Of a stretch of 64,000 nt of DNA, positions 25,713 through 34,196 are shown piece by piece. Both the position numbers and the translations under genes were made by a program. A model generated the notes under the pieces. It saw only the letters and a program-made list of their open reading frames with translations, was not told the DNA's origin and ran no database searches. This stretch comes from a virus. The stretch's first letter is position 1. The number at the start of each line of letters is the position of its first letter. The stretch is taken from the IMG/VR virus record IMGVR_UViG_3300042309_002320, positions 1-64,000 of that record; one strand, written 5' to 3'.

Positions 25713-27701
25713 ATGATTATAACTTATTTCCGTAGTTCGTCTTATAATGCCCATTCTATGTGCGAACAACAATATTTTTTTGAATATGTACTAGGATGGA
25801 GGGGCCCAAGTGGACAAAAGGCGGATAAAGGAACAATAGTCCATAAAGTTTTAGAAATTCTTGCCATGATCAAACAAGGTCAGCAAGATAAATTATCTCA
25901 TATAAATGATGACGAATTCTTAGGTCTTATAGATATAAATGACTATAGTCTTAATACCATAATAGAAAAAGTATACAAGCATTATAGTACCGCTAATAGT
26001 CATCATACTTGGACTCTAAAAGATTATAAGGACTGCTATAATTGGGTTTACAAGGCTATAGAATTTAATGGCGGTATGTTTGATCCTAGAAATCGCACCA
26101 TTCTTAGACCAGAACAACACTTTGATTTGGTAATAGAAAAACCATGGGCTAAATACGAGTATAATATTAATAATCAAAAACTAGATGGATATTTGGGCTT
26201 AAAAGGCACTATAGATCTTATAACTTTGGCTAATGATAATACTATTGAGGTCATAGATTGGAAAGGATTGCCATTAGATACAAAATTACCTACTCTTGAC
26301 GGATGGACAACAATTGCAGATATAAATGTGGGATGTAATGTCTTTGATCAATACGGTAATATATGTCGCGTTGTTGGAAAATCAAAAGTCAAAACAAAAA
26401 AATGTTTCAGAGTAACTTTTGATGACAAAACATCGGTAATTTGTGACGATGAGCATTTATGGAAATTATCTAATGGTGAAACGGTATCTATACAGGATCT
26501 AGTTATTGGCGATACTATTAATGTGACAAAACCATTAAAATGTAATGAACAATCCCTACCAATAGATCCTTATCTATTAGGAGTCTGGTTAGGAGACGGA
26601 AGAAATAGAGGCTGCGAGATTAGTGGCAATGATACTGAAATTTTTGAAGAAATACAAGCAAGAGGTTATGAGCTAGGAAAAATTCAAAATGATAAAAGAT
26701 CAAAAAATAAGACAGTATCGATCCTAAATGTGACAAAAATACTAAAATCTTTAAATCTATTGAATAATAAACATATACCAAAAATTTATTTGAGAGCATC
26801 TTTTCAACAAAGGCTAGACTTACTAAGGGGTTTGATGGATACAGACGGAAATGTAAATCCAATTAGAAAACAAACTGTGTTTACTTCTTGTAATAAAAAA
26901 CTATCCGACGATGTTAAAGACCTACTTTTAACCCTTGGGCAAAGACCGAATCAAGCGTGTATTAAAAGAGATACAAATTACAAAAAAAACGTAATCATAT
27001 ATCCTATTTCGTTTCGTCCAATTGACATTAATCCTTTTCTATTGAGCAGGAAAAAAGAACTTGTGGATGTAAATTGGGGATCTGGAAGATCTAGGGTTAG
27101 ACGAGTTTCTAAAATAGAAGAATCGATTATACAAAAAACTCAATGCATTTCCGTAGACAGTCCAGACAATACTTATCTGTGTACAGAAAATTATATTCCA
27201 ACACATAATACTGGACGAAGACTAGATTGGGCAACAGGACAAGAAAAAACACAAGAAAAATTAGAAAAAGATCCTCAACTCAAAATCTATCATTATGCTA
27301 TTAAAAAACTGTATCCTCATATAGAGAATGTTATTTTTTCCATATATTTTATTAATGATGGTGGTCCTTTTTCTATGGTTTTTCATGATAGCGATCTTGC
27401 CGATACTGAAAATATGTTACGTCAAAAATTTGAAATCATTAAACAAACTAAACGACCACGATTGAATAAAAGTTGGATGTGTAATAAATTATGTCATTTT
27501 GGTAAGACTACATTTGCTAATACTAATATTGAGCCATTGAAAGAGTATAGGGATGGACAAATATGTCAAAAAGATTCGATCATGACAAAATGTGAACAAG
27601 TGAAGCACGACCTTGAACTTTACGGGATCGATGCTACAATGAGTATGTACAAGCACCCGAATCATTCTTTTGGATCCTACAAAGCACCCGGAACCGTATG
27701 A
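25713..27701 (+). CDS. Cas4/RecB-like PD-(D/E)XK exonuclease containing an intein
   Basis: GTIVH, GTIDL, IDWK|TG and QL.IY motifs; one N-terminal Cys plus a C-terminal Cys cluster (Fe-S type). About 347 aa after splicing. Confidence 0.85.
   Translation: MIITYFRSSSYNAHSMCEQQYFFEYVLGWRGPSGQKADKGTIVHKVLEILAMIKQGQQDKLSHINDDEFLGLIDINDYSLNTIIEKVYKHYSTANSHHTWTLKDYKDCYNWVYKAIEFNGGMFDPRNRTILRPEQHFDLVIEKPWAKYEYNINNQKLDGYLGLKGTIDLITLANDNTIEVIDWKGLPLDTKLPTLDGWTTIADINVGCNVFDQYGNICRVVGKSKVKTKKCFRVTFDDKTSVICDDEHLWKLSNGETVSIQDLVIGDTINVTKPLKCNEQSLPIDPYLLGVWLGDGRNRGCEISGNDTEIFEEIQARGYELGKIQNDKRSKNKTVSILNVTKILKSLNLLNNKHIPKIYLRASFQQRLDLLRGLMDTDGNVNPIRKQTVFTSCNKKLSDDVKDLLLTLGQRPNQACIKRDTNYKKNVIIYPISFRPIDINPFLLSRKKELVDVNWGSGRSRVRRVSKIEESIIQKTQCISVDSPDNTYLCTENYIPTHNTGRRLDWATGQEKTQEKLEKDPQLKIYHYAIKKLYPHIENVIFSIYFINDGGPFSMVFHDSDLADTENMLRQKFEIIKQTKRPRLNKSWMCNKLCHFGKTTFANTNIEPLKEYRDGQICQKDSIMTKCEQVKHDLELYGIDATMSMYKHPNHSFGSYKAPGTV
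26265..27209 (+). mobile_element. Class 3-type intein (315 aa) with LAGLIDADG homing endonuclease
   Basis: Starts GLPLDTKLPT and ends THN before +1 Thr; block B EHLW, block F QCISVD; LAGLIDADG motifs LLGVWLGDG and LRGLMDTDG. Confidence 0.9.
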
Positions 27702-29566
27702 CTTATTCAGTACTACATTGTCATTCTCATTTTTCATTATTGGATGGCTTAAATAGACCAGAGCAAATTGCCACCAGATGTGCCAAACTGGGCATAAAAT
27801 CATGCGCCTTAACAGATCATGGTAATATTGCTGGATCGGTACAGTTTTATCAGAAAATGAGATCTAAGAATATTAAACCTATTCTTGGATGCGAATTATA
27901 TATTTGTGAAGATGATCCATCAATACAAACAAAAGAGAATGCTTCCTTGTCGCATTTTCTCGTACTTGCTAAAAATTTAAAAGGCTGGAAAACACTCATC
28001 AAAATAGTCTCGGAATCAAATAGGCCAGATTATTTTTACCATAAGCCAAGACTAAGTATCAAAAAATTATCAGAATTACTAGATGGTAACATAATAGGTG
28101 TTTGTGGTCATTTGGGATCGACCCTATCGGATATTATCTTAAAAGATCAGGATAATAGTATTTCTAATGGTCTTTCTTTTATAGACAATATGAAAACTAT
28201 ATTCGGTGATAATAATTTTTATTTGGAAACACAATTATTCGATAAAGACTATCTAAAAGAACAAGTCTATTTAACAGAAACGATTAGGCGACTATCCGAA
28301 TTAAGTAAAATTAAGGCAGTATCTACTCCCGATGCTCATTATTGCGAACAAGACGACGCTATAGACCAAAGGATTCTTCTTTGCAATAATTTAAAAACAA
28401 CACTATCTGATATTAATACTAAATTAATTAATAATCAAAGTATTCCTATGGAGTGCTTCTTTAAAAGTGATAAATATTATATCCTATCTCCAGAAGAGAT
28501 GACGAACCTACATAGTCCACAGGAAATAGAAAATACAATTTTTGTCGATAGCTTAATAGAAGAGTTCGACATCTTATCTGCTCCAAAATTGCCTAATTTT
28601 GATTGTCCAGAAAACTATGATCCTGATGAATTTTTAAGGGAATTGTGTAGAGTTGGATGGAAAAATAAAATCATTCCAAATATTCCAAAGGATGATCATC
28701 AAGTTTATGTAGATAGAATAAAATATGAGTTAGATATATTACAAGGTGCTAGTTTATCTAGTTATTTTTTAATTGTGCAAGATATAGTCAACCATGTTAG
28801 ACATAATAACTGGCTACCTGGACCGGGCAGAGGAAGTGGGGCTGGGTGTCTGGTTTCTTACCTTGTTGGTATCACAGATATTGATCCCATGAAATATGAT
28901 TTATTATTCGAAAGATTTTATAATGCTGGTAGAAATACTAAAGATAGAATCTCTATGCCAGATATTGATATAGATATTCCAATCGATAAACGCGAACAAG
29001 TATTAGAATACATAAAAAATAAATATGGACACAGTAAAGTATCTCAAATGATTACTTTTAATACTATGAAAGGTAGAGGGGCACTAAAAGACGTATTGCG
29101 AGTATATGGTAATATTAGTTTCGAAGAGATGAATACTATTACTAAGTTTATTCCTGACGAAGCTAAGATAGCGGACGAGCTTCAAGAAATGAAAGAAGAT
29201 ACTGGAGAAGCATCTATTATCAGATGGGCTCTAGAAAATAATACGGATAAACTAAAAGAATGGTGCTATATATCTGAAGAGGACGGGACTTTATCTGGGC
29301 CTCTATCTAAAAGATTTGAACAGGCAATAAGATTGGAGGGAACAAAATCTAATCAAAGCAAACATGCTGCTGGTGTAATAATAGGTACTCAAGACCTTGC
29401 GTCTTTATGCCCGATGGTCTATGATAACAGAAATGATCAGCTTATCGCTGGCATGGAGATGAACGATCTAGAGAGTTTGGGTCTAATAAAATTTGACATA
29501 TTGGGTATCGCATATTTGGATAAAATTATGTCAGTATCAGAATATTTAAAACACGGAGAACTATAA
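27698..29566 (+). CDS. dnaE: DNA polymerase III alpha, N-terminal part (PHP, palm, thumb)
   Basis: HCHSHFSLLDG, TDHG, GRGSGAG, PDIDID, HAAG and KFDILG motifs, then a stop. Confidence 0.93.
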   Translation: MTYSVLHCHSHFSLLDGLNRPEQIATRCAKLGIKSCALTDHGNIAGSVQFYQKMRSKNIKPILGCELYICEDDPSIQTKENASLSHFLVLAKNLKGWKTLIKIVSESNRPDYFYHKPRLSIKKLSELLDGNIIGVCGHLGSTLSDIILKDQDNSISNGLSFIDNMKTIFGDNNFYLETQLFDKDYLKEQVYLTETIRRLSELSKIKAVSTPDAHYCEQDDAIDQRILLCNNLKTTLSDINTKLINNQSIPMECFFKSDKYYILSPEEMTNLHSPQEIENTIFVDSLIEEFDILSAPKLPNFDCPENYDPDEFLRELCRVGWKNKIIPNIPKDDHQVYVDRIKYELDILQGASLSSYFLIVQDIVNHVRHNNWLPGPGRGSGAGCLVSYLVGITDIDPMKYDLLFERFYNAGRNTKDRISMPDIDIDIPIDKREQVLEYIKNKYGHSKVSQMITFNTMKGRGALKDVLRVYGNISFEEMNTITKFIPDEAKIADELQEMKEDTGEASIIRWALENNTDKLKEWCYISEEDGTLSGPLSKRFEQAIRLEGTKSNQSKHAAGVIIGTQDLASLCPMVYDNRNDQLIAGMEMNDLESLGLIKFDILGIAYLDKIMSVSEYLKHGEL

Positions 29567-29749
29567 ATGCTAACAAAAACTTTAGATCAAGTTGCTGCTG
29601 GCGAAATATTCAAGGTTAATAATATTAACTATGTCAAAATCGCCGAGGTTCGTGTCAGTTGTTGCAGAACCGTGAACTGTCACGTTCTAGAAGATAGTAA
29701 TCAAAGGACTTTTTTCCCAGGAAACACAGTTGTGGAGACTAATGGCTAA
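29567..29749 (+). CDS. Small hypothetical protein (60 aa, CC..C motif)
   Basis: Abuts the dnaE-N stop and overlaps the exonuclease start. Confidence 0.6.
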   Translation: MLTKTLDQVAAGEIFKVNNINYVKIAEVRVSCCRTVNCHVLEDSNQRTFFPGNTVVETNG

Positions 29750-30443
29750 TTTACAAAAAATTTGTGTATTCGATTTAGAAACGGACGGGGCTAATCCCGA
29801 TATTTGTAGCCCCGTTCAAATCGCTGCTGTTATTATCGATCCTTATAAATTAGAAATAATCAAAGATTCAGAATTTAATATCAATCTAAAGCCCCAAGCA
29901 ATACAAGATAATCCAGAATATATATATGATGATTCAGATGTTCTGGATTTTCATGCCAAAGTTAGAGGATGTGATAAAACAAAAATCTTAGAAGATTGGA
30001 GATCTTTCCAGAAACAAGACAGTGGATGGAAAATGTTTGTATCATATTTGGAAAAATATCATATAAGATCTGATAAAAAATCTTGCTTTACAGCTCCTAT
30101 TGCTGCTGGCTATAATATTAATAGATTCGATCTAAGAATTATAGATAGATTAAGCATAAAATATAATAATGTCAATAAGGAGGGACGAACATCTCTATTT
30201 TATCCACGAGATGTTATTGACTTAATGAACGTTATTTTTTATTGGTTTGAAGGTAATAATGAGCTTAAAAACTATACACTTGATAATGTTAGAGAATATT
30301 TAGGATTAGGAAATAGTGGCTCTCATGATGCTCTAAATGATGTTAGGGCAACAGCTGATATTTTGATAAGGTTTATGAAATTACATAGAAATTTATCGAA
30401 TAAGGTAAAATTCAGAAACGCCTTTGCTCTTGCAAAAAATTGA
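29742..30443 (+). CDS. DEDDh 3'-5' exonuclease (DnaQ/epsilon-like)
   Basis: ExoI FDLET, ExoII YNINRFD, ExoIII HDALND; ATG 29742 after GGAG. Confidence 0.9.
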   Translation: MANLQKICVFDLETDGANPDICSPVQIAAVIIDPYKLEIIKDSEFNINLKPQAIQDNPEYIYDDSDVLDFHAKVRGCDKTKILEDWRSFQKQDSGWKMFVSYLEKYHIRSDKKSCFTAPIAAGYNINRFDLRIIDRLSIKYNNVNKEGRTSLFYPRDVIDLMNVIFYWFEGNNELKNYTLDNVREYLGLGNSGSHDALNDVRATADILIRFMKLHRNLSNKVKFRNAFALAKN

Positions 30444-30444
30444 A

Positions 30445-32058
30445 ATGACTCAATATTTTACTTTTGATTGTGGATGTAAGTTCAAGGTTTTGGAATATAC
30501 CTCAGAAGGAATTCCAAAAATAGAATTTACAGGTAAGTTGAGCGATCTTAATCTTGATTGTTCAAAAACATGGTCTATGATCGGAGATGGTAATACCAAG
30601 GGTGTATTTCAACTAGAATCAAGGTTAGGTTCTAGTATGGCTAAAAAATTAAAACCAGAGAATATAGAACAACTATCTGCCCTAATTAGTATTATGAGGC
30701 CAGGATCTTTGGAAGCTTATAGAGATGGTAAAAGTATTAGTCATCATTATATAGACAAAAAGAATGGTCAAGAAAGCTTAGACTATTTTCACCCATCCCT
30801 TGAGCCATCATTAAAATCAACCTATGGAGAGATGATATATCAAGAACAGGCCATGCAAATCGCGCAAGCGGTGGCTGGTTTTGATCTACAAGAGGCAGAT
30901 ATGCTGCGTAAAGCAATTGGCAAAAAGAAGCCAGAAGAAATGGCTAAGATCAGGGTAAAGTTTAAGGATGGTGCTAAAAAACTGAATATAGTCAACGACG
31001 AAGAAATAGACGAAATATTTAGTTGGATTGAAAAAAGTCAAAGATATTCTTTTAACAAAAGCCACGCTGTGTCATATGCTATGAATGCATATTCTTCGGC
31101 TTATGCAAAAGCTCATTTTGCTAAAGTATTTTTTGCATCATACCTTAAATTTGCAAAAGATAAAATGGATCCTCAAAAAGAAATAAAAGAACTAATACGT
31201 AATGCAACAGAAATGGATGTGATTGTATGTGTTCCTGATGTAAGAAAGCTTAATAAGCATTTTACTATTAGCGATGATAAAATATATTTTGGTCTTACCG
31301 ATATTAAGGGTGTCGGTTATTCTGTTTATGATAAATTATTAACTATTATTAAAGACTTAGATATAAATAATATATCTTGGAATACATGTTTAGTTAAAGT
31401 TTTAACAAAAATTAATTCCACAGCAGCTAAAGCATTAATATCATGTGGCGCTTTAGATCATCATAATATCACCCGTACAAAAATGTTATTTGAATACGAT
31501 ATAATATCTGAATTAACTTCTAGAGAATTAGATCTATTAGACTTGGAAAAGTCGTCTATTGCACAATCTTTACATGGTTTATTGACACAAAATAAAATTA
31601 ATATTAAGCGAAAAAGTAGCATACAAAATCTTATCAATTTATATAACAATCCGCCATATTCATTAGATGATAAAATAGAATGGCTATCTGATACAGAAAA
31701 TGCTTTATTAGGGGCCTCTATAACTTGTTTTAAGATAGATTCTTATGATATTAGTATGACAAATTGTGATTGTAAAGCTTTCAAGACTACCAACGCATCA
31801 AAAAATATTATTTTAGCAGGAGAAATTAGTTCCATCAACTTTGTCAAAACAAAAAACGGCAAAAATCCTGGGGCTGAAATGGCCTTTGTCACAATAGAGG
31901 ATCAATTTGCATCACTAGACTCAGTAATATTATTTCCTGAGCAATTATCAAAATATCGTAACTATCTATTCGATGGTAATGTACTAATATTCTTAGGTAA
32001 TAAAAGTTCTAAAAAAGATTCTTTTATAGTGGAGAAATGTTTTATACCAAGATCTTGA
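30445..32058 (+). CDS. dnaE: DNA polymerase III alpha, C-terminal part (fingers, HhH, OB fold)
   Basis: GVFQLES, RPG, YQEQ.MQI, LRKAIGKK, YSFNKSHA, GLTDIKGVG and EMAFVTIED motifs. Confidence 0.92.
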   Translation: MTQYFTFDCGCKFKVLEYTSEGIPKIEFTGKLSDLNLDCSKTWSMIGDGNTKGVFQLESRLGSSMAKKLKPENIEQLSALISIMRPGSLEAYRDGKSISHHYIDKKNGQESLDYFHPSLEPSLKSTYGEMIYQEQAMQIAQAVAGFDLQEADMLRKAIGKKKPEEMAKIRVKFKDGAKKLNIVNDEEIDEIFSWIEKSQRYSFNKSHAVSYAMNAYSSAYAKAHFAKVFFASYLKFAKDKMDPQKEIKELIRNATEMDVIVCVPDVRKLNKHFTISDDKIYFGLTDIKGVGYSVYDKLLTIIKDLDINNISWNTCLVKVLTKINSTAAKALISCGALDHHNITRTKMLFEYDIISELTSRELDLLDLEKSSIAQSLHGLLTQNKINIKRKSSIQNLINLYNNPPYSLDDKIEWLSDTENALLGASITCFKIDSYDISMTNCDCKAFKTTNASKNIILAGEISSINFVKTKNGKNPGAEMAFVTIEDQFASLDSVILFPEQLSKYRNYLFDGNVLIFLGNKSSKKDSFIVEKCFIPRS

Positions 32059-32082
32059 CAATCGACGCCGTCTTGGTATAAT
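32055..32082 (+). promoter_or_regulatory. Strong sigma70 promoter for ssb
   Basis: TTGACA-N16-TATAAT with an extended -10 TG. Confidence 0.75.
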
Positions 32083-32121
32083 ATGTATAGTTGTGGCGTT
32101 TTTAACTTTAGGAGTTTGATT

Positions 32122-32490
32122 ATGAATATCACTTTGTTGAAGGGTAATTTAGCACGAGATCCGGAACTACGCGTTGTTAATCCTAATGGAAAGCAAACAA
32201 GCGTTGTCAACTTTACTATTGCTGTTAACAGAGATTATGTTAAGGCTAATGGAGAAAAAGACAGGATCACATCTTTTATTAACTGCGAGGCATGGGATAG
32301 CGGCGCCGAAACTATTGCTGAGTCCTTGAAGAAGGGCGACTTGGTGATGGTTGAAGGCTCCTTAAGAAATGACACATGGGAAAAAGATGGTGTTAAGCAT
32401 AGTAGTCTAAAGGTTAGAGTTAATAACTTTTCTAAGATTACCAAGTTGAGCAGAATTAAGTCGGAAGAGTCCGAAACTGTTGCTTTCTGA
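32122..32490 (+). CDS. ssb: Single-stranded DNA-binding protein
   Basis: GNLARDPELR, FTIAVNR, CEAW and KGDLVMVEGSL motifs; acidic tail ending in Phe; AGGAG RBS. Confidence 0.95.
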   Translation: MNITLLKGNLARDPELRVVNPNGKQTSVVNFTIAVNRDYVKANGEKDRITSFINCEAWDSGAETIAESLKKGDLVMVEGSLRNDTWEKDGVKHSSLKVRVNNFSKITKLSRIKSEESETVAF

Positions 32491-32507
32491 AACCAAATAG
32501 GAAATAT

Positions 32508-32544
32508 ATAGAATATTGGGGGTGAAATATCCCCCTTATTCTAT
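32508..32544 (+). terminator. Hairpin after ssb, probable intrinsic terminator
   Basis: Inverted repeat ATAGAATA.TT.GGGGG / CCCCC.T.TATTCTAT. Confidence 0.6.
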
Positions 32545-32549
32545 TATAT

Positions 32550-34196
32550 ATGGAAAAATCTAAACTAAAGATATTGATGTGTTCCGAAGCAAGTTTTATT
32601 AATTCTGGCTTTGGAAAATATGCATATGAAATTTTATCTAGATGGCATAAAACAAATAAGTATATAGTTGCAGAGTTTGCTTCTTATGGTATGGTTAATG
32701 ATCCAAGAGATAAGAACATAGATTGGATATATTATGCCAATGCTGTTAGAGATAGTGATCCTAGATATAAAGAGTATATGTCTAGAACAGATAATCAGTT
32801 TGGTCGATGGAGATTTGAAAAAGTATTATTAGATTTTAAACCAGATGTTGTTGTTGATGTTAGAGATTTTTGGATGACAGGATATCAATCCATATCCCCA
32901 TTACGAAGTTATTTTCATCATATTTTGATGCCAACTGTAGATTCAGCACCACAACAAGAAGAATGGATCGATATATTTTTATCTACAGATGCCATCTTTA
33001 CATATAGCGATTGGGGGGCAAAAGTTCTAAAAGAACAAACAAACAATAAAATAAAATATATCAGCACAACAAGTCCAGGGGTCAATCTCGATATCTTTAA
33101 TATAAAAGATACAAAGTCTTTACGACGCCAATTTGGTATACCGGAGGATGCTTTTATTTTTGGGTCCGTAATGAGAAATCAAAAACGCAAGCTAATCCCT
33201 GAGCTGTTTAATTCGTTGCGTAAGATATTATCCATACTTGAATCAGAGCAATCTAAACAAAAGATCTATCTATATTTACATACCACATATCCAGATATGG
33301 GATGGGATATACCAGAATTATTAAGTCAATATAATATAGCAAATAATGTTATATTCACTTATTTATGTAAAAATTGTCAAAATATAGAGCCTTCTGTTTT
33401 TAGTGGTGCTCAAAAAATTTGTAATAAATGTTTGAACAAAAGCTCTCAATTTCCATCTGTGTCGAATGGAGTCTCTGATACTCAATTAAGCGACATATAT
33501 AACATATTCGATATATATGTTCAATATGCTATTTGCGAAGGATTTGGTATGCCTCAAGTAGAAGCAGGCGCTTGCGGTATACCAATAGCCACAGTTAATT
33601 ATAGTGCTATGGTAGATATTATAGAGAAATTGAATGCTTATAAAATTAATGTCAAAAGCTATTTCAAAGAAATAGAAACTAAAGCTATAAGAGTATATCC
33701 AGATAATGATGATCTTATTAAGATTATTATAGAATATATGAACATGCCATTTCCAATTAGAAACAAAAAAAGATTAGAAACTAGACAACTTACAGAGAAA
33801 TTTTATAATTGGGATAATATTACTAAATTATGGGAAAATTATTTTGATCAATTAGAATTTAGAGCAAACTGGTTATCTCCATTAGGTCAATTACAAAAAC
33901 CACCAAAACCAAAAGATAATAAAGAAAATATTATTCAAATTATTAATATGTGTAATGATTATCTTAAAAACGCAGATTTATTATCATCATCTAAATTTTT
34001 AAGTATGTTACAGAGTGCTGATTATGGATTCACATATGCTTCTCCAACACAAATATCTAACTATTCAATAGATAATGTATACGATTATGTTAATACGATG
34101 ATTGATAATAATAATAGGTCCGAAGAAGCAAGAGCTAATACTCAATTTATTGAAGAAGACTTTGTGCAATATGCACATTTAAAGAGTAACACATGA
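32550..34196 (+). CDS. GT-B (GT4-like) glycosyltransferase with inserted CxxC...CxxC motif
   Basis: SGFG N-terminal loop, RNQKRK, EGFGMPQVEAGACG (EX7E); CKNC...CNKC insert. Confidence 0.85.
   Translation: MEKSKLKILMCSEASFINSGFGKYAYEILSRWHKTNKYIVAEFASYGMVNDPRDKNIDWIYYANAVRDSDPRYKEYMSRTDNQFGRWRFEKVLLDFKPDVVVDVRDFWMTGYQSISPLRSYFHHILMPTVDSAPQQEEWIDIFLSTDAIFTYSDWGAKVLKEQTNNKIKYISTTSPGVNLDIFNIKDTKSLRRQFGIPEDAFIFGSVMRNQKRKLIPELFNSLRKILSILESEQSKQKIYLYLHTTYPDMGWDIPELLSQYNIANNVIFTYLCKNCQNIEPSVFSGAQKICNKCLNKSSQFPSVSNGVSDTQLSDIYNIFDIYVQYAICEGFGMPQVEAGACGIPIATVNYSAMVDIIEKLNAYKINVKSYFKEIETKAIRVYPDNDDLIKIIIEYMNMPFPIRNKKRLETRQLTEKFYNWDNITKLWENYFDQLEFRANWLSPLGQLQKPPKPKDNKENIIQIINMCNDYLKNADLLSSSKFLSMLQSADYGFTYASPTQISNYSIDNVYDYVNTMIDNNNRSEEARANTQFIEEDFVQYAHLKSNT

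What the first reader, a model, noticed from the sequence alone, without database searches (positions are those of the whole stretch)
27698..32058. DnaE split into two genes with no intein, and a proofreading exonuclease gene placed in the break
Seen: the N-part ends one helix after the third catalytic Asp motif (KFDILG...KHGEL*). The C-part resumes just before GVFQLES with a new Cys-containing leader (FDCGCKF...LDC). A 60-aa Cys-containing ORF and an intact DEDDh exonuclease fill the gap, with almost no non-coding space. Known: these segments are contiguous in bacterial DnaE, and the cyanobacterial split DnaE is rejoined by a split intein. Neither end here has intein motifs. Inference: a non-covalent multi-subunit replicase (N + C + epsilon-like, perhaps the 60-aa protein), possibly held together by metal-binding Cys residues. 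The PHP metal ligands (HxH, D, H, E, DxH) also look intact, so two proofreading activities may exist.
Basis: partly seen in the sequence, partly recalled or inferred. Interest (0 to 1): 0.8.

Follow-up and report, generated by a model that had tools for sequence, protein, structure and literature searches.

The report
Intein-less split phage DNA polymerase III
A large group of uncultured phages encodes its only DNA polymerase (bacterial Pol III alpha type) as two separate genes cut at the palm/fingers boundary with the proofreading exonuclease gene between them, and no intein or intron rejoins them, so the replicase almost certainly assembles from separate pieces.

Summary
DnaE-N (27698-29566: PHP, palm, thumb), a 60-aa ORF (29567-29749), a DEDDh exonuclease (29742-30443) and DnaE-C (30445-32058: fingers, HhH, OB) form a translationally coupled block. 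The two halves together cover a full Pol III alpha with nothing lost at the break.

The same breakpoint and N-exo-C order recur in 231 related viral contigs and in a second, more distant clade. All four genes are under purifying selection, and all catalytic residues are invariant. Five complete relatives (175-244 kb) contain one palm domain only, always in the split form, and no family A or B polymerase.

No intein motifs flank the break. Relatives carry a true split intein plus homing endonuclease at a different dnaE site (FNKSH), which serves as an in-family contrast. Rfam finds no intron. One relative has 6 kb of metabolic genes inside the break.

Split and contiguous forms interleave on the tree, with at least 4 transitions.

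The five invariant Cys (CC in the 60-aa SH3-like protein; CGC...C in the DnaE-C leader) are lineage-specific, so they cannot be the general way the halves are held together.

This is a new variant of phage 'genes in pieces'. The literature I could search does not describe it for a full-length C-family polymerase. No assembly or activity was tested here.

The parts
27698..29566 (+). DnaE-N: PHP domain, palm and thumb of Pol III alpha (622 aa). It holds all three catalytic Asp (D422, D424, D600) and nine PHP metal-ligand positions. It ends about 20 aa after KFDILG, with no intein-like extension.
29567..29749 (+). 60-aa conserved small protein (s60). Predicted as a six-strand SH3-like beta-barrel. 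The invariant Cys32-Cys33 (nt 29660-29665) lie in the loop between strands 3 and 4. Its start abuts the DnaE-N stop (GGAGAACTATAAATG).
29742..30443 (+). DEDDh (DnaQ/epsilon-like) 3'-5' exonuclease, 233 aa from ATG 29742. In numbering from the TTG 29730 ORF, the invariant residues are D15, E17, D134, H199 and D204. It also has a conserved C-terminal tail (KF..AF). It is the only DEDDh exonuclease found in the 101-kb record.
30445..32058 (+). DnaE-C: fingers, HhH (beta-binding) domain and OB fold of Pol III alpha (537 aa from ATG 30445). It aligns to E. coli alpha residues 588-1055. There is no tau-binding tail.
30445..30561 (+). DnaE-C leader. About 28 new residues are modelled as a three-strand beta-meander, with invariant Cys-Gly-Cys (nt 30469-30477). 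An invariant Cys then sits just before the TW helix; that last Cys is shared with some contiguous relatives.
32083..32490 (+). SSB gene. It closes the conserved block PD-(D/E)XK, DnaE-N, s60, exo, DnaE-C, SSB.
25713..27701 (+). Upstream PD-(D/E)XK (Cas4-like) nuclease gene, the conserved left neighbour of the block. Here it carries a LAGLIDADG intein insert that most relatives lack.

Best explanation
The phage's replicative DNA polymerase is a C-family (DnaE-type) enzyme made as separate polypeptides from one translationally coupled operon. DnaE-N carries the PHP domain and the whole catalytic palm/thumb. DnaE-C carries the fingers, the HhH duplex-binding domain and the OB fold.

The two halves most likely re-form the normal Pol III alpha fold non-covalently, through the native palm-fingers interface. 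The epsilon-like DEDDh exonuclease encoded in the break is the proofreading subunit.

In the window's lineage, a dedicated 60-aa SH3-like protein and a new Cys-bearing leader on DnaE-C are lineage-specific accessories. They may stabilise the junction, possibly through a shared metal site.

Shown here: gene structure, absence of splicing elements, conservation, selection, and that this is the sole polymerase. Inferred: physical assembly, stoichiometry, and the roles of s60 and the Cys residues.
For: 1. The halves are complementary with nothing lost (phrog_405 42-615 and 610-1054). The break maps to the palm/fingers junction.
2. The same breakpoint and order occur in all 80 fetched loci long enough to show them, out of 231 relatives. 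They also occur in a second clade and several deep lineages.
3. dN/dS for unsaturated pairs is 0.02-0.04 for N, 0.01-0.05 for C, 0.005-0.08 for exo and 0.04-0.28 for s60.
4. The catalytic Asp triad, the DEDDh residues and the PHP ligands are conserved.
5. Stop/start overlaps, with Shine-Dalgarno GGAG before the s60 and exonuclease starts, indicate coupled translation. Promoter-like sites inside the block are no more frequent than in shuffled sequence.
6. No Rfam intron. There are no intein blocks at either end. A genuine split intein plus endonuclease sits at the FNKSH site of dnaE in relatives L087, L127, L138 and L142.
7. In relative G001 the halves are 6.8 kb apart, with metabolic genes between them.
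8. Five complete relatives have exactly one palm domain, in a 627-649-aa open frame, and no PolA or PolB. The same holds for the window's own record.
9. Pairwise distances of N and C correlate at r = 0.89.
10. There are precedents for active intein-less split phage enzymes: Aeh1 NrdA-a/b (PMC3045599) and phage 25 gp43A/B (reviewed in PMC2988022).
Against: - No direct evidence of complex formation or activity. AlphaFold-multimer could not be run with these tools.
- The accessories thought to clasp the junction (s60, CGC leader) are missing in other split lineages, so their necessity is unclear.
- No sliding clamp was detected in complete relatives, so how processivity is achieved is unknown.
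- All genomes are metagenomic. No isolate or expression data exist.
Confidence: 0.8

Rival explanations
1. The two halves are rejoined after expression, by a degenerate or unrecognised split intein, by RNA cis/trans-splicing, or by ribosomal bypass. The functional enzyme would then be a single chain.
For: Cyanobacterial and metagenomic 'fractured' dnaE genes are rejoined by split inteins (PMC2677866). Relatives of this phage do use a split intein at another dnaE site. In the window, DnaE-N and s60 happen to be in the same frame.
Against: - DnaE-N ends flush with the homologous sequence, with no ~100-aa N-intein starting with Cys. The DnaE-C leader has no terminal HN/SN plus nucleophile, and in clade 2 there is no leader at all.
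- No Rfam intron match.
- The 860-nt gap holds two genes under purifying selection.
- The frame relation between N and s60 varies among relatives (gaps of -14 to +5 nt).
- G001 has 6.8 kb between the halves.
Confidence: 0.03
2. The halves no longer work together as one polymerase. Each would have an independent role, for example DnaE-N as a PHP nuclease or a minimal polymerase, and DnaE-C as a DNA- or clamp-binding accessory, with replication relying on a host polymerase.
For: All three catalytic Asp and the PHP site are in N alone. No clamp is encoded. Iyer et al. 2021 (PMC7824862) describe minimal split Pol III modules that accompany another polymerase.
Against: - N and C co-occur in every locus long enough to show both, and both show omega of 0.05 or less.
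- Fingers motifs (GVFQLES and others) are invariant.
- Contiguous and split forms interchange on the tree, which implies functional equivalence.
- No other polymerase exists in complete genomes.
Confidence: 0.1
3. The split is an assembly or sequencing artefact, or a recently broken pseudogene.
For: The window comes from a metagenome-assembled, incomplete (about 70%) viral contig.
Against: The identical architecture is present in 231 contigs from many independent metagenomes at 58-96% identity. Thousands of N-only protein clusters exist. Purifying selection is strong. The stop/start junctions are conserved.
Confidence: 0.01

Closest known systems
Intein-less 'genes in pieces' of T4-related phages: Aeh1 NrdA-a/NrdA-b split by mobE (PMC3045599), phage 25/44RR DNA polymerase gp43A/gp43B, and the T4 topoisomerase split by mobA (all reviewed in PMC2988022)
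   Same: An essential replication enzyme is encoded as two adjacent genes. Relatives have a contiguous gene. No RNA or protein splicing is involved, and the pieces assemble non-covalently. In Aeh1 NrdA, new terminal tails created at the break are essential; the new DnaE-C leader is a candidate analogue. A homing endonuclease sits in the break in one relative here (L008).
   Different: Here the polymerase belongs to family C (DnaE), not family B. The genes in the break are a functional partner (the proofreading exonuclease) plus a conserved small protein, not a homing endonuclease. The state is ancient, very widespread, and has switched between split and fused several times.
Split-intein 'fractured' dnaE genes (cyanobacterial DnaE; metagenomic DnaE-1/2/3 loci of Dassa et al. 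2009, PMC2677866)
   Same: dnaE is encoded in two pieces. In the metagenomic loci, an intervening free-standing gene lies between adjacent halves. Relatives of this phage carry exactly such a fracture at the FNKSH site.
   Different: The break studied here has no intein halves, sits at a different position (the palm/fingers junction) and contains an exonuclease rather than a homing endonuclease. The product cannot be ligated by protein splicing.
Minimal split Pol III alpha module of group 2.2 (T4-like) jumbo phages (Iyer et al. 2021, PMC7824862)
   Same: A phage-encoded C-family catalytic module is split into standalone proteins that are proposed to reconstitute an enzyme without splicing.
   Different: That version is a minimal catalytic core without the other Pol III alpha domains. 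It is split between the NTP-binding and Mg/template-binding subdomains, is encoded by distant genes, and accompanies a family B replicase. Here the enzyme is full length (PHP to OB), is split after the complete palm, is encoded in one operon with its exonuclease, and is the only polymerase.
E. coli Pol III core (alpha-epsilon-theta) and mycobacterial DnaE1 with PHP plus DnaQ proofreading (PMC3664792, PMC11348249)
   Same: A DnaE-type polymerase is paired with a separate DEDDh exonuclease. In the window's clade the PHP ligand set is intact as well, so there may be two proofreaders, as in mycobacteria.
   Different: In those systems alpha is a single chain. The small third subunit, theta, is helical by my recollection, whereas s60 is predicted as an SH3-like barrel. 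The exonuclease gene is not embedded in dnaE.

Membership tests
C-family DNA polymerase, DnaE-type Pol III alpha | N-terminal PHP domain | tested here: met
   PF02811 3.6e-38 on DnaE-N. The nine ligand positions (H7, H9, D16, H41, E66, H86, H138, D212, H214) are conserved.
C-family DNA polymerase, DnaE-type Pol III alpha | Pol-beta-like palm with three catalytic Asp | tested here: met
   PF07733 4.2e-73. D422, D424 and D600 are invariant in 50 of 50 sequences.
C-family DNA polymerase, DnaE-type Pol III alpha | Fingers, HhH and OB domains | tested here: met
   PF17657 2.3e-48 and PF14579 1.1e-9. Aligns to E. coli alpha 588-1055. The AF2 model has pLDDT 84, with a C-terminal beta-rich domain.
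C-family DNA polymerase, DnaE-type Pol III alpha | All domains on one polypeptide | tested here: not met
   Two ORFs are separated by 878 nt that hold two other genes. The pair is therefore a member by homology but has a non-canonical subunit structure.
Split-intein fractured gene (Dassa 2009 type / cyanobacterial DnaE) | N-intein (~100 aa, Cys1, TxxH block) at the end of the N piece, and C-intein (~36 aa, terminal Asn plus nucleophile) at the start of the C piece | tested here: not met
   DnaE-N ends about 20 aa after KFDILG. The leader lacks the terminal Asn motif. In-family positive control: L087, L138 and L142 show CLDPTT...TLDHKF and ...VSN|S at the FNKSH site.
Split-intein fractured gene (Dassa 2009 type / cyanobacterial DnaE) | Free-standing homing endonuclease gene between the halves | tested here: not met
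   The gap holds s60 and a DEDDh exonuclease. Only L008 adds an HNH gene.
Intein-less phage 'genes in pieces' | Contiguous homologues exist in related phages, and both pieces are retained under selection | tested here: met
   Contiguous relatives P0003-P0024 and L087. Omega is 0.05 or less for both halves.
Intein-less phage 'genes in pieces' | The pieces assemble into an active enzyme | not testable with these tools
   Needs co-expression and activity assays, or multimer modelling.
Intein-less phage 'genes in pieces' | The break is caused by, or occupied by, a mobile endonuclease | tested here: not met
   No endonuclease lies in the break in the window. An HNH gene is present there only in L008. 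The origin of the break is unresolved.
DnaQ/epsilon-like DEDDh 3'-5' exonuclease | Exo I (DxE), Exo II (D) and Exo III (Hx4D) motifs | tested here: met
   PF00929 2.6e-10. D15, E17, D134, H199 and D204 are invariant.
DnaQ/epsilon-like DEDDh 3'-5' exonuclease | C-terminal segment that binds the polymerase PHP domain | tested here: inconclusive
   A conserved C-terminal tail (R214, F215, L218, R220, K225, F228; KF.KAFAN across clades) exists. Its binding partner is untested.
Minimal split Pol III alpha of group 2.2 jumbo phages (Iyer 2021) | Lacks PHP and the other accessory domains, co-occurs with a family B polymerase, and has halves encoded at distant loci | tested here: not met
   PHP, HhH and OB are present. 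No PolB in the window's own record or in complete relatives. The halves are in one operon.

The most novel reading that the evidence does not exclude
In this lineage the fractured polymerase would be held together by a dedicated clasp. The exposed Cys-Cys loop of the 60-aa SH3-like subunit and the Cys-Gly-Cys...Cys leader of DnaE-C would jointly coordinate a metal (Zn or an Fe-S cluster) at the palm/fingers junction. That would give a redox- or metal-sensitive, four-subunit C-family replicase (N, C, s60, epsilon). The same junction has been cut and re-fused several times in phage evolution, which would make it a natural module boundary of Pol III alpha.
Probability: 0.25. Interest if true: 0.8.

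Novelty: new variant of a known kind. Interest (0 to 1): 0.62.

Why it matters
- **Domain assembly.** As far as I recall, Pol III alpha has been studied only as a single chain. This natural version, cut exactly between the catalytic palm and the fingers, is widespread and under strong selection. If the pieces assemble as inferred, the two modules can fold and assemble independently. That gives a tractable system for studying domain assembly, fingers closure and exonuclease docking in C-family polymerases.
- **Annotation.** Gene callers label thousands of ~620-aa 'DNA polymerase III alpha' proteins in metagenomes that are only half an enzyme.
- **Evolution.** The repeated switching between split and fused forms, together with an intein-type fracture at a second site in the same gene family, makes this a good case for how essential genes tolerate fragmentation.

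Tried and rejected
- **Intron or ribozyme in the gap:** Rfam at E <= 1 over 27000-33000 gave nothing.
- **Close cultured relatives:** megablast and tblastn against 50,697 phage records gave at best 34% (N), 32% (C) and 27% (exo) identity.
- **s60 as a fragment or domain of DnaE or another known family:**
  - Pfam and PHROGs gave no hit.
  - A profile search of 1.84 billion representatives found almost only standalone 56-67-aa proteins.
  - Foldseek against PDB and VIA-align gave only generic SH3-like/KOW/Tudor/EF-P-domain-I similarity (TM 0.57; Z 5.1 or less).
  - BFVD matched only uncharacterised phage proteins.
  - The ESM Atlas gave 'hypothetical protein'.
- **Homology between s60 and the clade-2/G001 small protein:** rejected by hhalign (probability 0.6%).
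- **Stop-codon readthrough fusing N to s60:** rejected, because the frame relation varies between relatives.
- **Truncated exonuclease in L063-L065:** a start-codon calling artefact; the frame is open.
- **AU test on the full 82-row tree:** did not finish. It was rerun on 36 representatives.
- **Cys geometry:** model coordinates are not exposed by the tools, so Cys-Cys distances in the DnaE-C model could not be measured.
Full report
**Observation.** The window is part of a 101-kb IMG/VR viral record that is about 70% complete. At the reported coordinates there are four same-strand ORFs.
- 27698-29566 (622 aa) carries a PHP domain and the Pol III alpha catalytic domain.
- 29567-29749 (60 aa) has no family hit.
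- 29730-30443 is an RNase_T/DEDDh exonuclease (phrog_192, 'DNA polymerase exonuclease subunit').
- 30424-32058 carries the Pol III fingers and HhH domains.

Against one phage DnaE profile (phrog_405), the first ORF covers positions 42-615 and the last covers 610-1054, so the halves are exactly complementary. Against solved structures, DnaE-N stops at about Taq residue 626, and DnaE-C resumes at E. coli 588 / Taq 648 and runs to E. coli 1055. By my recollection of the published E. coli domain boundaries, the cut therefore lies at the palm/fingers junction: PHP, palm and thumb fall on one chain, and fingers, HhH and OB on the other. There is no tau-binding tail.

**Junctions.** The junction sequences are GGAGAACTATAAATG (N stop abutting the s60 start, with a Shine-Dalgarno), GGAGACTAATGGCTAA (an 8-nt overlap between s60 and the exonuclease) and TGAAATG (exonuclease to DnaE-C). 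From these and from relatives, the true starts are ATG 29742 for the exonuclease and ATG 30445 for DnaE-C. Promoter-like sites within the block are at chance level.

**Is it real and conserved?** A scan of IMG/VR found 231 relatives, and the best 80 were fetched (66-96% identity in DnaE-N).
- Every locus long enough shows PD-(D/E)XK, DnaE-N, s60, exonuclease, DnaE-C, SSB. Gene lengths are near-constant (~621, ~59, ~231 and ~541 aa), with mostly 8-nt overlaps between s60 and the exonuclease and between the exonuclease and DnaE-C, and a stop-to-start gap of only a few nt between DnaE-N and s60.
- DnaE-N always ends 12-15 residues after the ...LDK motif that follows KFDILG.
- A search of 5.8 billion protein clusters returned 7,957 hits at E <= 1e-20. 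The top 120 are all ~603-626-aa proteins with PHP plus palm only.
- For pairs with unsaturated dS, dN/dS is 0.02-0.04 (N), 0.01-0.05 (C), 0.005-0.08 (exonuclease) and 0.04-0.28 (s60).
- The polymerase aspartates D422, D424 and D600, the DEDDh residues D15, E17, D134, H199 and D204, and the PHP ligand positions are conserved.
- Pairwise distances of N and C correlate at r = 0.89.

Misassembly and pseudogenisation are excluded.

**No splicing.** Rfam finds nothing in 27000-33000 at E <= 1. DnaE-N has no C-terminal extension, and the DnaE-C leader has no C-intein signature.

The same gene family supplies a contrast. In relatives L087, L127, L138 and L142, dnaE is additionally broken at the FNKSH site. 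There the upstream piece carries a ~94-aa extension beginning CLDPTT with a TLDHKF block. The downstream piece has a ~36-aa extension ending VSN|S. A 295-aa free-standing endonuclease lies between them. This is the split-intein 'fractured gene' arrangement of Dassa et al. 2009 (PMC2677866). The palm/fingers break looks nothing like it.

In the more distant relative G001, the order is DnaE-N, a small ORF, about 6 kb of metabolic genes, the exonuclease, then DnaE-C (which keeps the CGC leader). The halves are 6.8 kb apart. In L008 an HNH endonuclease gene sits between DnaE-N and s60.

**It is the phage's only polymerase.** The window's own record has one palm domain, one fingers domain, one DEDDh exonuclease, and no family A or B polymerase. 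Five complete relatives (175-244 kb; three with terminal repeats; CheckV 100%) each have exactly one palm domain, in a 627-649-aa open frame, and no PolA or PolB. No beta-clamp was detected.

The surrounding module is PhoH, HNH, RecA, DnaB, primase, dNMP kinase, PD-(D/E)XK, [split polymerase block], SSB.

**How far does the split go, and what varies?** The closest contiguous DnaE proteins share 43-47% identity with DnaE-C. They have 42-52 residues between KFDILG and GVFQLES, against about 77 in the split form. The extra ~28 residues are the CGC-bearing leader.

Fetching relatives of those contiguous proteins showed that most are split at the same junction. The lineages differ as follows:
- **L085/L086:** N, s60, exonuclease, C, with the CGC leader.
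- **Clade 2 (a large second clade):** a shortened PHP domain, a different 72-82-aa small ORF, the exonuclease, and a DnaE-C with no leader.
- **L110:** N, exonuclease, C, with no small ORF.
- **L138/L140:** other genes lie in the gap.
- **L087/L127:** the exonuclease sits immediately upstream of a dnaE that is contiguous across this junction.

The clade-2/G001 small protein is not detectably homologous to s60 (hhalign probability 0.6%). The universal features are therefore the breakpoint, the N-exonuclease-C order, and the exonuclease with its conserved C-terminal tail. The s60 protein and the Cys-rich leader are lineage-specific.

On a tree of the N region (82 rows), split and contiguous forms interleave inside one strongly supported phage clade, with at least 4 state changes. 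The deepest branches are split. On 36 representatives, an AU test rejects a single clade of split forms (delta lnL 275, p about 1e-36; the group was named after the tree was seen). Parsimony favours an old split with several re-fusions, but the direction is not resolved and module exchange between phages could contribute.

**The accessories.**
- **s60.** It is predicted with high confidence (pLDDT 92) as a six-strand beta protein. Structural searches give only generic small SH3-like barrels: EF-P/eIF5A domain I, ribosomal L2, KOW, Tudor and FeoA (TM 0.57, Z 5.1 or less). They also match many uncharacterised phage proteins. Its two invariant cysteines are adjacent (C32, C33) and lie in the loop between strands 3 and 4. 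The family is about 126 clusters at 50% identity, almost all standalone 56-67-aa proteins.
- **DnaE-C leader.** It is modelled as a three-strand meander (pLDDT 83-88), with an invariant CGC between strands 1 and 2 and a further invariant Cys just before the TW helix.

The five invariant Cys are compatible with a shared metal site. I could not measure distances or model the complex, and other split lineages lack these features. This is a lineage-specific hypothesis (about 25%), not the general assembly mechanism.

**Proofreading.** In the window's clade the nine PHP ligand positions are conserved, seven in at least 49 of 50 sequences and H7/H9 wherever the ORF start was called correctly. Both a PHP and a DEDDh proofreader are therefore possible, as reported for mycobacteria (PMC11348249, listed). 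In clade 2 about 100 residues of the PHP domain are missing, which leaves the DEDDh enzyme as the common proofreader.

**Comparison with what is known.**
- Intein-less 'genes in pieces' are documented in T4-related phages: Aeh1 nrdA, where new tails at the break are essential for activity (PMC3045599), and the T4 topoisomerase and the family B polymerase gp43A/gp43B of phages 25/44RR, whose pieces co-purify and are active (PMC2988022).
- Iyer et al. 2021 describe a minimal Pol III alpha core split into distantly encoded proteins in jumbo phages that also have PolB (PMC7824862).
- In seven full-text searches, and in the papers read, I found no description of a full-length DnaE split at the palm/fingers junction with the exonuclease gene in the break.
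- No deposited phage genome is close.

I therefore class this as a new variant of a known kind.

**Limits.** Everything rests on metagenomic sequence.

Noticed in passing
window 25713-27701 (insert at about aa 190-499): The PD-(D/E)XK (Cas4-like) nuclease gene upstream of DnaE-N carries a ~310-aa LAGLIDADG-containing insert. The insert is present only in the window and L004. All other relatives have the two flanks contiguous, which confirms a mobile intein and its approximate boundaries.
   Followed up: partly
L087 6001-10687 (also L127, L138, L142, L123): dnaE in these relatives is fractured at the FNKSH site by a genuine split intein (N-intein CLDPTT...TLDHKF; C-intein ending ...VSN|S), with a 295-aa free-standing endonuclease between the halves. 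This is the Dassa 2009 'fractured gene' type, at what I recall to be the classical cyanobacterial DnaE intein position.
   Followed up: partly
L082 7908-13890 and L083 1-1514 (record G001, about 51.3-57.4 kb): About 6 kb of metabolic genes lies inside the dnaE break, between the small ORF and the exonuclease. By eye they are glyoxalase-like, aldehyde dehydrogenase-like, amidinotransferase-like, aminotransferase-like and dehydrogenase-like. The break acts as an insertion hotspot.
   Followed up: no
L008 7869-8564: A 231-aa free-standing HNH endonuclease gene is inserted between DnaE-N and the 60-aa ORF in one close relative.
   Followed up: partly
window 32055-32082: A perfect sigma-70 consensus (TTGACA, 16 nt spacer, TATAAT, with an upstream TG) overlaps the end of DnaE-C, directly before the ssb gene. 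The real ssb start may be the internal Met near 32122.
   Followed up: no
L088-L143 (clade 2), DnaE-N ORFs of 515-545 aa: The second split clade lacks about 100 residues of the PHP domain (profile positions ~110-213). It has a different, non-homologous 72-82-aa small ORF after DnaE-N, with an invariant Cys and a YQV motif.
   Followed up: partly
P0001, P0002, P0011, P0016 and others: Some DnaE-C-only proteins are 943-966 aa long because they carry a full intein (Pfam Intein_splicing plus LAGLIDADG). The split gene is therefore additionally invaded by contiguous inteins in some phages.
   Followed up: no
G002-G006 (complete relatives, 175-244 kb) and the window's own record: No beta sliding clamp (PF00712) is detectable in these large phages, although a DnaE-type replicase is their only polymerase. 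Their processivity factor is unknown.
   Followed up: partly
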